Shown here: positions 60,837-62,604 of the stretch, one piece after another | Layout: each line of letters starts with the position of its first letter | Position numbering within the stretch: the first letter of the stretch is position 1 | DNA from: a virus | Length of the DNA stretch: 64,000 nt | Strand: one strand, 5' to 3' | Virus record (IMG/VR): IMGVR_UViG_3300005253_000186 | Coordinates: 1-64,000 of that record | Program-made: the position numbers and the translations under genes | The notes under the pieces: model-generated | Seen by the model: the letters and a program-made list of their open reading frames with translations, nothing else | Databases searched by the model: none | Told to the model about the DNA's origin: nothing

Positions 60837-62604
60837 CCAGCCGTAACCTAGCATACCTGATCGCGCCAAGACGGGCGATGACCTGCCTCCCAGCCACGCC
60901 CCGCCGAAGATGGCTTTGACAGCCACCTATGTAAGAGAGGATGTGGGCCCAGAGTCCTCTGAATTTCTTATACCGTATTTCCAGCCCGGACAAAACGTGC
61001 CCTACCGTTCCACACCGCTCCGTGCCAAGCCTACCAGCCTTAACCCGCCTGAACGTGCGCGACCCTCCCCGACGAGACTTGCACTCCAGCCGTACCCTAG
61101 CCCGCCAATTCATAACGCGCAGCAACAGGCTCCGCCCAACAGCGACCTGCCTTCCAGCCATGCCCCGACGAACATAACGGATCCCCGACCCGACCTGGCG
61201 AGCCGAGCCTAGCCGTCCAGCCATACCCTGCCACAACGAAACGGACCTTTCCAGACACCTCCGTGCCATCCAGCCGTAACCCGCCGAACCTACCCTAGCC
61301 TAACCGATCCGTGCCACAACGTGCCGAACCATACCATCCAGCCGCACCATGCAATTCCGGACCCAGCAATGCCACTCCGGGCAGAGCCGAGCCTTCCAGC
61401 CGTACCTCTACGGGACGTGCCTAGCACTGCCGATCAGCACCATCCACGCCTTCCAGCCTCAACACAACGTCCCAGGACTAACCTCGCCAAGACCAACCTT
61501 CCAGCCTCGCTTCGCTAGCCTTGACGAGCCGTACCGGTCAGCGACGAGCCCGTCCCAAACTTACCCTCCAGCCGCAACCCACAATAACAGGCCAAGGCCC
61601 GACAGGCGGCACCTGACCGCACCTACCAGCCATAACGCGCAGCGCCTAGCCCAACGGCACCCTGACGCACTTCGCCAGTCCTCCCAGCCAAACCCGAACA
61701 GAATAAAACGGATCATACAGAACACTTCCGTGCCGTGCCGTGCAGAACCTAGCCCTCCAGCCATACCGCACCGAGCCTGTCCGGGTCACGCGGGAACAAG
61801 ACACACGATGCCATCCAGCCGTACAGGAACACGCCGTGCCGAGCGCGAACCAAACGCAACCTACGCGGACCAACCACCCAGCCGTAACATGACCCTCGGC
61901 AACCAACAGTGACGTGACCAACCCGAACGCACCCAACCATCCAGCCTAGACACAACCGATCTCGACTTTCCAAGCCAAGCCGAGCCTGACCCTCCAGCCA
62001 CAACTAGACAAAACAATCCGCCCAAACGGCAACCCCGCCTAATCACGCCATCCAGCCATGAGATAACGAGCGCGGCCATGCCGGAACGTGCCCGGACGAA
62101 CCTAGCCCAACCGGTCCGAACCTTCCAGCCCCACATGAACCCACAGGGCCTAGCCCCGACGCGCCAGATCCAGACGAGCCTAGACACACCGACCAGCCGT
62201 AACTTACCATGCCATTGCGCGCCTAACGCAACGGGCCTCATCCTGCCATCCAGCCACACCCGGATAAATCCGGACAAACCTAACCCGGAGCCGCCCTTCC
62301 AACCAGCCGTACCGGGACAAAACAATCCGGGACGGGACGAGCCTTGCCTATCCACGCCCCTCCAGCCATAACCCGCTCAGACGAACCCGGACTCGCATGA
62401 CCCTCCTCGCCTCTCCGTCCAGCCGTGCCAAACAACGCCGCAACACAACCCAGCACAACACGCAAGGCCTGGCCTGGCCTACCAGCCGTAACATCCCCTC
62501 CATGACAGACGGTGACGTACCCATCCAGGGCGCACCATGCCATCTCCAGCCATACCCCGCCGTACACTGACGAACCCAAACGTTCCAGAACGTGCCAGCC
62601 AGCC
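60837..62604 (-). repeat. Non-coding array of ~29 units delimited by GGCTGG, each made of (GGY-like triplet + NN) 5-nt registers; candidate guide-RNA array
   Basis: CCAGCC (+ strand) at 60837, 60890, 60981, 61034, 61086, 61154, 61217, 61270, 61338, 61396, 61453, 61501, 61568, 61626, 61684, 61757, 61815, 61878, 61941, 61994, 62052, 62125, 62193, 62250, 62303, 62362, 62419, 62482, 62546, 62599; 21 of 29 spacings are exactly 5n+3. Confidence 0.9.
60967..60974 (-). promoter_or_regulatory. GGTATAAG promoter-like motif inside the array
   Basis: The same octamer precedes many operons in the window; it lies in the only long (91-nt) array interval. Confidence 0.55.

What the first reader, a model, noticed from the sequence alone, without database searches (positions are those of the whole stretch)
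60837..62604. Array grammar: quantised unit lengths (5n+3) and a hidden dinucleotide code
Spacings between CCAGCC anchors are 53, 91, 53, 52, 68, 63, 53, 68, 58, 57, 48, 67, 58, 58, 73, 58, 63, 63, 53, 58, 73, 68, 57, 53, 59, 57, 63, 64, 53. Of 29, 21 equal 48/53/58/63/68/73 and seven more are within 1 nt. Example on the minus strand (61343->61270): GGC TGG AT GGT AT GGT TC GGC AC GTT GT GGC AC GGA TC GGT TA GGC TA GGG TA GGT TC GGC GG GTT AC GGC TGG. The first G of each triplet is nearly invariant, while the NN pairs differ between units, giving about 9-14 dinucleotides (18-28 variable nt) per unit. Repeat and spacer are interleaved rather than alternating, so CRISPR and tandem-repeat finders would probably miss it.
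Basis: seen in the sequence. Interest (0 to 1): 0.92.

Follow-up and report, generated by a model that had tools for sequence, protein, structure and literature searches.

The report
Phage VIPR guide-RNA array variant
This 1.8-kb stretch is the guide-RNA array of a phage VIPR system, an RNA-guided DNA-silencing machinery first described in 2026 preprints, here in an unusual version with three-letter punctuation between guides and two different copies of the guide-binding protein.

Summary
There are 30 CCAGCC anchors, and 21 of 29 spacings equal 5n+3 (binomial P 1.7e-9). Lag-5 autocorrelation is 0.391 against 0.294 in shuffles (z 9.8). The NN phases carry 1.97 bits against 0.90, 1.25 and 1.44 bits for the G-K-Y phases.

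Membership holds on these points:
- Both genes downstream of the array are Vipr homologues. A family profile hits PDB 36pp 'SUSP1 Vipr protein' at E 8e-13, with the His, Arg and D-W-R contacts kept in the first gene.
- The upstream gene is an accessory partner that sits beside vipr in 57 of 80 relatives.
- 78 of 80 IMG/VR relatives carry such arrays next to vipr.

Three things differ from all 80 relatives: punctuation by 3 nt (TGG, giving 5n+3) instead of 4 nt (5n+4), two tandem vipr paralogues, and the gene order.

No natural target was found. One guide matches the phage's own probable terS at 20 of 24 positions, with the skipped bases on wobble positions; this is not significant after correction. 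NN composition fits codon positions 1-2 read antisense.

This scan has already met VIPR arrays on other genomes.

The parts
62605..63306 (-). vap-like accessory gene (233 aa, Lys-rich N-terminal tail). Its TAA stop abuts the first GGCTGG of the array.
   Evidence: ORF. phrog_15946 at E 2.4e-12; no Pfam family. A tblastn homologue lies on the same strand just downstream of vipr in 57 of 80 IMG/VR relatives. The ESM Atlas gives only viral hypothetical clusters.
60837..62604 (-). vrRNA array of 29 units. Each unit is TGG followed by 9-14 pentamers of NN + G-K-Y, and the last triplet is always GGC. 28 units look like guides and all are different.
60893..60983 (-). Aberrant unit 28 (91 nt), whose interior has no pentamer periodicity.
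   Evidence: Parse score -20.1 against +5 to +23 for the other units. The RNA fold is not exceptional (z -1.26). No Rfam match in 58000-64000 at E <= 1.
60723..60836 (-). Non-repeat leader between the last anchor and the viprA start codon. An AAGGAG ribosome-binding site lies upstream of the ATG.
   Evidence: Sequence. The fold is weaker than shuffles (z +1.64). No consensus promoter here.
59952..60722 (-). viprA (256 aa): a Cas7-like RAMP that keeps the SUSP1 Vipr RNA-contact residues and has disordered basic tails at both ends.
   Evidence: phrog_4652 at E 1.4e-14. Profile A1 against PDB 36pp at E 8.2e-13 over residues 6-189 of 202. AlphaFold2 pLDDT 82.1, with residues 1-27 and 238-256 below 50. 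Foldseek top hits are Csm3/Cas7 chains at E 4e-7 to 3e-5, prob 1.00.
59885..59930 (-). 13-bp GC-rich hairpin between viprA and viprB, followed by a weak U-rich run and the viprB ribosome-binding site.
   Evidence: Fold of 59861-59960(-): -45.2 kcal/mol, z -2.64, 3 of 200 shuffles fold as well.
59229..59870 (-). viprB (213 aa): a diverged Vipr paralogue. The beta-1 His is replaced by Ser, the G-loop reads G-I-G-E-W-R, and the thumb is longer.
   Evidence: phrog_4652 at E 2.2e-10. PDB 36pp at E 0.0064. Six homologues at 47-93% identity share the same substitutions. AlphaFold2 pLDDT 80.4. Foldseek gives Csm3/Cas7 at E 1e-5.
15494..15528 (-). Candidate near-target of unit 12 (61881-61943): 20 of 24 NN positions match under the 1-nt skip rule. 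It lies inside the HTH gene 15284-16480(+), which sits directly upstream of the large terminase gene.
   Evidence: The skipped bases fall on codon position 3 of the + strand gene (worked out from the coordinates). Not significant once the whole search space is counted (see the full report).

Best explanation
The stretch is the vrRNA (guide RNA) array of a phage-encoded VIPR system.

Proposed mechanism:
1. It is transcribed from the minus strand, probably as one operon in the order vap, array, viprA, viprB (inferred).
2. The transcript yields 28 different guides of 48-73 nt.
3. Within a guide, each pentamer is bound by one Vipr protomer. The G-K-Y triplet is flipped into the protein, and the two N bases are presented for pairing (inferred by homology with the solved SUSP1 complex).
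4. The 9-14 NN pairs of a guide together read 18-28 bases of double-stranded DNA, skipping one target base per repeat. This blocks transcription of a rival mobile element or phage (inferred from the family; no target was identified here).
5. The 5n+3 length rule arises because consecutive guides are separated only by a 3-nt TGG inserted after a terminal GGC. That shifts the pentamer register and so ends one filament and starts the next (the register shift is shown; its role as a boundary is inferred).
For: Array features:
- Phase-specific conservation: NN 1.97 bits against 0.90, 1.25 and 1.44 bits for G, K and Y.
- 9-14 repeats per unit, within the published range of 9-16.
- All 28 guides differ.

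Protein partners:
- Both downstream genes belong to the Vipr family. Profile A1 hits PDB 36pp 'SUSP1 Vipr protein' at E 8.2e-13 over nearly the full length.
- ViprA keeps the equivalents of H17, R138, D177, W178 and R179 (alignments; residue roles from 10.64898/2026.04.26.720927 section 5).
- Both models have RAMP folds.

Relatives:
- 479 IMG/VR stretches encode relatives, and the best 80 were fetched.
- 77 of 80 by a simple count, and 78 of 80 by Viterbi, have period-5 G tracts beside vipr. These are mostly on the vipr strand.
- 57 of 80 have a vap homologue next to vipr.
- The Viterbi scan finds no such tract anywhere else in the 84-kb contig.

Codon composition of the NN pairs:
- The 306 NN pairs fit the reverse complement of codon positions 1-2 best: +13.0 nats over background, against -14.7 for sense 1-2 and +2.6 to -46.6 for the other four frames. 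This model wins 1950 of 2000 bootstraps.
- It is still best without the first and last NN of each unit (+5.7 nats, 1791 of 2000).
- In 61 relatives (5,847 NN), sense 1-2 wins by +245 nats. A 1-2 frame is best in 49 of 61 loci. This is what a wobble-skipping code predicts.

Population data:
- Two other marine-sediment studies hold relatives whose vipr and vap genes lie at about 86-96% identity, while the array aligns only in patches with many joints and loose ends.
Against: - No RNA data: no listed sequencing run is RNA. Transcription, processing and unit ends are not shown.
- No consensus promoter or terminator frames the array.
- No natural target. Among the 80 relatives' loci (1.14 Mb) no skip rule beat shuffles. 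None appeared in the 94-kb relative G001 under skip 1.
- The excess of near-matches in the phage's own contig under skip 1 (sum 104.7 against 96.2 +/- 2.5; 0 of 60 shuffles) has a twin: an equally large excess under skip 2 in G001 (104.1 against 96.1 +/- 2.4; 0 of 60). That statistic is therefore not trustworthy.
- Interior triplets are loose: GG in about 45% and GT in about 35%.
- There is no roughly 40-nt conserved 3' tail as in the characterised type II vrRNAs.
Confidence: 0.88

Rival explanations
1. The array makes decoy or sponge RNAs rather than guides. The pentamer tracts soak up Vipr proteins, either the phage's own for regulation or a rival phage's, and the NN content is not read against any target.
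For: Satellites are reported to encode solo vrRNAs that redirect a phage's Vipr (abstract and passages of 10.64898/2026.10.15.759431). No target was found here.
Against: The array sits in an operon-like block with its own two vipr genes and vap. All 28 units differ. The NN composition carries a codon 1-2 signature, which a pure sponge would not need.
Confidence: 0.05
2. It is a decaying pentanucleotide microsatellite or other neutral repeat with no function of its own.
For: Short perfect period-5 runs exist (61728-61743 and 62466-62480).
Against: Decay would blur all five phases alike, yet two phases are at 1.97 bits and three at 0.90-1.44 bits. Punctuation is regular: 21 of 29 spacings are 5n+3. 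The same kind of tract sits beside vipr in 78 of 80 distant relatives. The array is identical in a second sample of the source study (X2 and X3, 0 differences).
Confidence: 0.02
3. It acts as DNA, not RNA. It could be a G-rich/C-rich strand-asymmetric element such as a protein-binding centromere, a packaging site, or a G-quadruplex/i-motif tract.
For: Strong strand asymmetry: GC skew is -0.356 and AT skew +0.340 in 61001-62000. GGNNN spacing could in principle form two-tier quadruplexes (recalled, not tested).
Against: About a third of the triplets are GT rather than GG. Half-turn (5-bp) phasing with hypervariable NN has no known DNA-binding counterpart. The neighbouring proteins are RNA-binding RAMPs homologous to a protein solved on exactly such an RNA.
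Confidence: 0.03
4. It is a CRISPR-like adaptive array that acquires new units from invaders.
For: Unit content differs between related phages while the flanks are conserved, as in CRISPR arrays.
Against: No cas1/cas2-like gene is among the ORFs of 58000-64000. There is no repeat-spacer alternation. The published family has no known acquisition machinery (10.64898/2026.04.26.720920 section 4).
Confidence: 0.02

Closest known systems
VIPR systems with 'staggered' vrRNA arrays (bioRxiv 10.64898/2026.04.26.720920; main text and Fig. S18 legend only, figure and tables not seen)
   Same: Tail-less guides are packed head to tail on the vipr strand. They are built of GGY/NN pentamers, and a register shift marks each boundary. 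Vipr and a vap partner lie beside the array. The system is carried by a phage.
   Different: The legend describes 1-nt overlaps, which correspond to the 5n+4 spacing I measured in the IMG/VR relatives. Here the shift is 3 nt (GGC-TGG, 5n+3) in 26 of 34 register jumps. No relative among the 80 is dominated by that value. The order here is vap, array, viprA, viprB rather than vipr, vap, array, and there are two vipr genes against one place in 80 of 80 relatives.
Type II VIPR of Escherichia phage SUSP1 (Vipr structure PDB 36pp; bioRxiv 10.64898/2026.04.26.720920 and .720927)
   Same: The Vipr proteins are homologous (profile E 8.2e-13), with the G1, G2 and Y3 contact residues kept in ViprA. The pentamer scaffold is the same, and the repeat number is similar (9-14 against 9-16).
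   Different: SUSP1 has four vrRNAs of about 100 nt, each with a conserved roughly 40-nt pseudoknot tail. Here there are 29 units of 48-91 nt with no tail. The second G is relaxed to G or T. Pairwise protein similarity is marginal (E 0.1 and 0.0064).
Class 1 CRISPR backbone: Cas7/Csm3 filament on a crRNA
   Same: The fold is shared: Foldseek's top hits are Csm3 and type VII Cas7 chains at prob 1.00. One protomer binds per fixed number of guide nucleotides, and a thumb interrupts pairing periodically (from the papers).
   Different: The period is 5 with only 2 bases read, against a period of 6 with 5 read. There is no repeat-spacer array and no cas1/cas2. No nuclease or other Pfam domain was detected in the flanking ORFs tested. 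The system is carried by a phage.
TRAP bound to the trp leader RNA (recalled from memory, not tested here)
   Same: An oligomeric protein reads an RNA made of conserved triplets separated by 2-3 variable bases.
   Different: In TRAP the triplets are the whole signal and the spacers are ignored. Here the spacers are the message. The proteins are unrelated.

Membership tests
VIPR system | A Vipr protein (minimal RAMP with RRM core, G-loop and thumb) is encoded at the locus. | tested here: met
   Profile of 18 homologues against PDB 36pp 'SUSP1 Vipr protein': E 8.2e-13 over residues 6-189 of 202. AlphaFold2 models reach pLDDT 82.1 and 80.4. Foldseek top hits are Csm3/Cas7 at prob 1.00.
VIPR system | The residues that hold the GGY triplet in SUSP1 Vipr (H17, R138, D177, W178, R179) are conserved. 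| tested here: met
   ViprA has H55, R171 and D211-W212-R213 in the aligned columns. ViprB keeps the Arg and W-R but has Ser for the His and Glu for the Asp, as do all 6 of its clade homologues. The feature is therefore met for ViprA and only partly for ViprB.
VIPR system | vrRNAs are tandem pentamers with a conserved GGY (or related) triplet alternating with hypervariable NN, with at least 4 repeats and typically 9-16. | tested here: met
   Entropy is 1.97 and 1.97 bits for NN against 0.90, 1.25 and 1.44 bits for the triplet. There are 9-14 repeats in 28 units. The consensus is G-K-Y rather than strict GGY.
VIPR system | A vipr-accessory (vap) gene lies in the locus. | tested here: met
   A homologue of the 233-aa protein lies just downstream of vipr in 57 of 80 relatives. 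Which of vap1-6 it is cannot be told, because the classification tables are in supplements that are closed.
VIPR system | The vrRNAs are expressed and co-purify with Vipr. | not testable with these tools
   No RNA run is listed.
VIPR system | NN pairs match natural targets under the 1-nt skip rule better than under 0, 2 or 3 skips. | tested here: inconclusive
   I tested 19 of the 28 guides (regular units only). There was no excess in 1.14 Mb of relatives' loci. There is one 20 of 24 near-match in the phage's own contig under skip 1 (0 of 300 shuffles). However, about 0.16 such hits are expected over everything searched (my estimate), and a control excess appeared under skip 2. The NN composition fits codon positions 1-2.
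Type II VIPR (SUSP1-like vrRNA) | A conserved, structured 3' tail of about 40 nt follows each repeat tract. | tested here: not met
   Units abut one another with only GGC-TGG between them. No significant structure in the aberrant unit or the leader. No Rfam hit.
Staggered-array VIPR | Consecutive vrRNAs overlap by 1 nt, which gives a spacing of 5n+4. | tested here: not met
   In this array 26 of 34 register jumps are +3 and 7 are +4. In the 80 relatives almost all jumps are +4.
CRISPR-Cas | Direct repeats alternate with spacers, and cas1/cas2 adaptation genes are present. | tested here: not met
   There is no repeat-spacer structure. No cas family is among the neighbouring ORFs.

The most novel reading that the evidence does not exclude
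This lineage runs a two-subunit VIPR.
- ViprA forms the backbone on the GKY/NN pentamers.
- The paralogue ViprB has a rebuilt pocket for the first G (His to Ser/Asn, Asp to Glu, longer thumb; conserved in all 7 clade members).
- ViprB would recognise the 3-nt TGG punctuation and cap each filament. That would replace the pseudoknot tail of type II vrRNAs, much as Cas5 caps a Cas7 backbone.
- The 5n+3 grammar would then be the signature of that cap site.
- The strong hairpin between viprA and viprB would keep ViprB substoichiometric.
- If so, it would be a living intermediate between single-RAMP VIPR and multi-RAMP class 1 CRISPR effectors.
Probability: 0.2. Interest if true: 0.6.

Novelty: new variant of a known kind. 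Interest (0 to 1): 0.4.

Why it matters
The class itself is already in print (four 2026 preprints), so the 'hidden code' is not a discovery.

What this locus adds is natural variation in how guides are delimited and how the effector is built:
- a tail-less array of 28 guides punctuated by 3 nt;
- a conserved second Vipr paralogue with altered base-contact residues.

The published model proposes that duplication and specialisation of an ancestral RAMP gave rise to Cas5, Cas6 and Cas7. A phage lineage that already carries two specialised Vipr proteins would make that step testable.

The codon-composition test used here needs no target database. It may be useful for telling sense from antisense targeting in other VIPR arrays.

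Tried and rejected
Initial ideas, before the literature search:
- A TRAP-like ring-binding RNA, a partition centromere, a G-quadruplex tract, or a Rho or CsrA sponge.
- I dropped these once the flanking proteins proved to be Vipr homologues.

Searches for a known RNA family or for close phage relatives:
- Rfam found nothing in 58000-64000 at E <= 1.
- blastn of the locus against 50,697 phage records gave no match.

Target search by scripts. I used 19 of the 28 guides. The 9 units with an irregular repeat and the aberrant unit 28 were left out.
- 80 relatives' loci: no excess under any skip.
- Own contig: the best hit is unit 12, at 20 of 24.
- The 91%-identical relative L082 has the same 20 of 24, so it is not a better target.
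- Five homologues of the probable TerS do not carry the residues that a perfect match would encode.
- G001, the 94-kb relative, gave nothing under skip 1 but a spurious-looking excess under skip 2.

Attempts to reach ViprB-clade loci or a host:
- ViprB alignment A4 in viral contigs and in genome contigs: no relative found.
- TerS-like alignment A2 in genome contigs: no relative found.
- The single TerS-like protein in viral contigs: no relative found.

Expression and complex:
- No RNA holder is listed among the sequencing runs.

Decoded peptides:
- I read them by eye.
- Unit 15 resembles a Walker-B-like strand. That resemblance is recalled, not tested.
- A regex for such a motif found 2 places in ORFs over 150 aa of the contig, and neither was alike.
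Full report
WHAT IS THERE

The window is part of an 84,457-nt IMG/VR virus record. It carries 32 tRNA genes and a tmRNA gene and a large terminase gene (phrog_675, E 5.8e-70). It was assembled from marine sediment.

Between two minus-strand genes lies a 1.77-kb stretch with no credible ORF. It is C-rich on the plus strand: GC skew is -0.356 and AT skew +0.340 in 61001-62000.

- CCAGCC occurs 31 times here, against 20 times in the other 62 kb.
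- The 29 spacings are those listed, and 21 of 29 equal 5n+3 (P 1.7e-9).
- Lag-5 self-match is 0.391, against 0.294 +/- 0.010 in 500 shuffles. The maximum in 117 other windows of the same size is 0.284.

ANATOMY

Read on the minus strand, each unit is TGG followed by 9-14 pentamers of the form NN + G-K-Y. The last triplet is always GGC, so the 'anchor' GGCTGG is a terminal GGC plus a 3-nt insert.
- That insert is the whole reason for 5n+3.
- The seven off-by-one units each contain one 4-nt or 6-nt repeat.
- Unit 28 (91 nt) is aperiodic inside.

Entropy by phase is 1.97 and 1.97 bits for NN, against 0.90, 1.25 and 1.44 bits for G, K and Y (209 pentamers of 20 regular units).
- GG is strict in the first repeat (26 of 28) and the last (28 of 28).
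- It is loose in the interior: about 45% GG and 35% GT.
- The first NN tends to start with A, and the last NN is AC or AT in 17 of 28 units.
- All 28 guide-like units differ.

A phase-tracking Viterbi scan of both strands of the whole contig calls this region and nothing else. Tandem Repeats Finder sees only three scraps. Rfam finds nothing.

WHAT IT IS

A note from this scan on the same stretch used the word VIPR. A literature search then found three preprints from one group and a fourth from another.

I read sections 4, 10, 18, 20, 26 and 27, plus passages, of 10.64898/2026.04.26.720920. I read sections 5 and 6, plus passages, of 10.64898/2026.04.26.720927. For 10.64898/2026.10.15.759431 I saw the outline, abstract and passages. 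For 10.64898/2026.10.21.760802 I saw passages only.

They describe Viral Interference Programmable Repeat systems as follows.
- A small Cas7-like protein, Vipr, polymerises on a vrRNA made of 9-16 GGY/NN pentamers, one protomer per repeat.
- It flips the GGY bases into the protein and presents the NN bases.
- The NN bases pair with double-stranded DNA while one target base per repeat is skipped.
- Natural targets are rival phages, satellites and prophages.
- Besides the characterised type II vrRNAs, which have a roughly 40-nt pseudoknot tail, there are 'staggered' tail-less arrays, ribozyme-interspersed arrays and variant triplets.

MEMBERSHIP

Both genes downstream of the array hit phrog_4652 (E 1.4e-14 and 2.2e-10) and have no Pfam family.
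- As single sequences they hit PDB 36pp 'SUSP1 Vipr protein' only weakly (E 0.1 and 0.0064), at the G-loop.
- A profile of 18 homologues hits it at E 8.2e-13 over residues 6-189 of 202.
- In those alignments ViprA keeps the equivalents of H17, R138 and D177-W178-R179, the residues the structure paper assigns to G1, G2 and Y3.
- AlphaFold2 models (pLDDT 82.1 and 80.4) find Csm3 and Cas7 chains first in the PDB (E 4e-7 and 1e-5, prob 1.00). Entry 36pp is not in that fold library.

The upstream 233-aa gene (phrog_15946) has a homologue directly after vipr in 57 of 80 IMG/VR relatives.

Of 479 IMG/VR stretches that encode relatives, the best 80 were fetched.
- 77 of 80 show period-5 G tracts next to the gene, most of them on its strand.
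- The Viterbi scan finds array state in 78 of 80.

Cultured phages with this Vipr clade include mycobacteriophages, Gordonia phages, one Pseudomonas phage record and cyanophage Cy-LDV1.

HOW THIS LOCUS DIFFERS

In the relatives nearly every register jump is +4 nt, giving 5n+4 spacing with words such as A-GGC or C-GTC. This fits the '1-nt overlapping' arrays in the Fig. S18 legend of the first preprint.
- Here 26 of 34 jumps are +3. None of the 80 relatives is dominated by +3.
- All 80 relatives have one vipr place, whereas this locus has two in tandem.
- The order here is vap, array, viprA, viprB, against vipr, vap, array in the relatives.
- Array size is not exceptional: 1,688 nt in array state here, against up to 1,961 nt in L027.

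ViprB is not a decaying copy.
- Six homologues at 47-93% identity exist. One of them is on an ENA contig of 31,836 nt, the same length as the contig of a ViprA-like protein, so the pair probably recurs.
- All seven sequences share Ser or Asn for the beta-1 His, Glu for the G-loop Asp, and a longer thumb.
- A 13-bp hairpin separates viprA from viprB (z -2.64).
- The words 'paralog' and 'heteromer', where searched, are absent from the main texts of the three VIPR preprints I searched. 'Two vipr' occurs only for neighbouring protomers. The supplements could not be seen.

ARE THE UNITS GUIDES?

Direct evidence is missing. No RNA run holds the stretch.

I searched by script with 19 of the 28 guides under 0-3 skipped bases, against shuffled NN order.
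- The 80 relatives' loci gave nothing.
- In the phage's own contig, skip 1 alone gave an excess (sum 104.7 against 96.2 +/- 2.5; 0 of 60 shuffles). It is driven by unit 12, which matches 15494-15528(-) at 20 of 24 positions (0 of 300 shuffles; shuffle mean best 16.75).
- The site lies in codons 71-82 of the HTH gene 15284-16480(+). That gene has weak hits to a Cox-like excisionase (E 2.7e-5) and to a small terminase (E 0.0062), and it overlaps the start of the large terminase gene. All skipped bases fall on codon position 3.

Against this result:
- A uniform-base estimate gives about 0.16 such hits over everything I scanned.
- The relative at 91% protein identity has the same 20 of 24.
- Five homologues do not encode what a perfect match would require.
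- An equally large 'excess' appeared under skip 2 in an unrelated 94-kb relative.

I therefore treat the site as a candidate only.

A DATABASE-FREE TEST

If the NN pairs read codon positions 1-2, their dinucleotide spectrum should resemble those positions, in sense or antisense.
- With codon tables from the contig's 28 ORFs of at least 200 aa, the 306 NN pairs fit the antisense 1-2 model best. It scores +13.0 nats over background. Sense 1-2 scores -14.7 and the other four frames +2.6 to -46.6. The model wins 1950 of 2000 bootstraps.
- It is still best without the boundary NN pairs (+5.7 nats; 1791 of 2000).
- In 61 relatives with enough array and genes (5,847 NN), sense 1-2 wins by +245 nats. 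A 1-2 frame is best in 49 of 61 loci, where 20 would be expected by chance.

This supports a wobble-skipping code for the family. It also suggests that this array's guides are mostly complementary to coding strands. The caveat is that constraints on the RNA itself could shape the NN usage.

POPULATION DATA

A second sample of the source study holds the identical array: X2 and X3, with 0 differences in the listed pieces.

Two other marine-sediment studies, from 2018 and 2025, hold relatives.
- Their listed vipr and vap pieces differ at about 4-17% of positions.
- In the array, only two listed pieces (67 and 69 nt) align.
- There are several joints and loose ends that themselves look like NNNCC pentamers.

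This is weak evidence, since these are low-depth contigs and 30 records were not shown. It is still what turnover of guide content between conserved flanks would give.

VERDICT

The thing is a VIPR vrRNA array, a class already in print and already met by this scan on other genomes. Its own points of interest are the 3-nt punctuation, the conserved second Vipr paralogue and the gene order. For these I can offer only an inferred cap model. I rate it a new variant of a known kind, with interest 0.4.

Noticed in passing
window 29467-57524, minus strand: There are 32 tRNA genes and a tmRNA gene (54169-54528, tag peptide ADNGYRMAA) in a 28-kb stretch of an 84-kb phage contig. That is an unusually dense translation-related module for a contig of this size.
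   Followed up: no
window 59885-59930, minus strand: A 13-bp GC-rich hairpin lies between viprA and viprB, followed by a short U-rich run and the viprB ribosome-binding site (fold -45.2 kcal/mol, z -2.64). It could attenuate read-through and set an unequal ViprA:ViprB ratio.
   Followed up: partly
window 59952-60722 and 62605-63306: ViprA has Lys-rich disordered tails at both ends (residues 1-27 and 238-256 have pLDDT under 50), and the vap-like protein has a Lys-rich N-terminal tail. The closest ViprA homologues (P0003, P0004) share the basic N-terminus, but more distant Vipr proteins do not.
   Followed up: partly
window 60893-60983, minus strand: Unit 28 of the array is 91 nt long and aperiodic inside. 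It has no Rfam match and no exceptional fold, so its nature is open: an insertion, an internal signal, or a decayed unit.
   Followed up: partly
window 61687-61759, minus strand (unit 15): Read as antisense codons, this guide spells a run of hydrophobic residues followed by an acidic and an aromatic residue. From memory that resembles a Walker-B strand of DnaB/RecA-type ATPases. This was not tested against any family model, and no similar motif is encoded in the contig.
   Followed up: partly
window 15284-16480, plus strand: A 398-aa protein with an N-terminal MerR/Cox-like HTH overlaps the start of the large terminase gene (16434-18152). It is probably the small terminase subunit. Only 5 homologues besides its own cluster turned up in 5.8 billion proteins, and one relative in IMG/VR.
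   Followed up: partly
loci L001-L080 (IMG/VR relatives): Across 61 related VIPR arrays the NN dinucleotides fit sense codon positions 1-2. In this window's array they fit the antisense of positions 1-2. This is a possible lineage difference in which DNA strand is targeted.
   Followed up: partly
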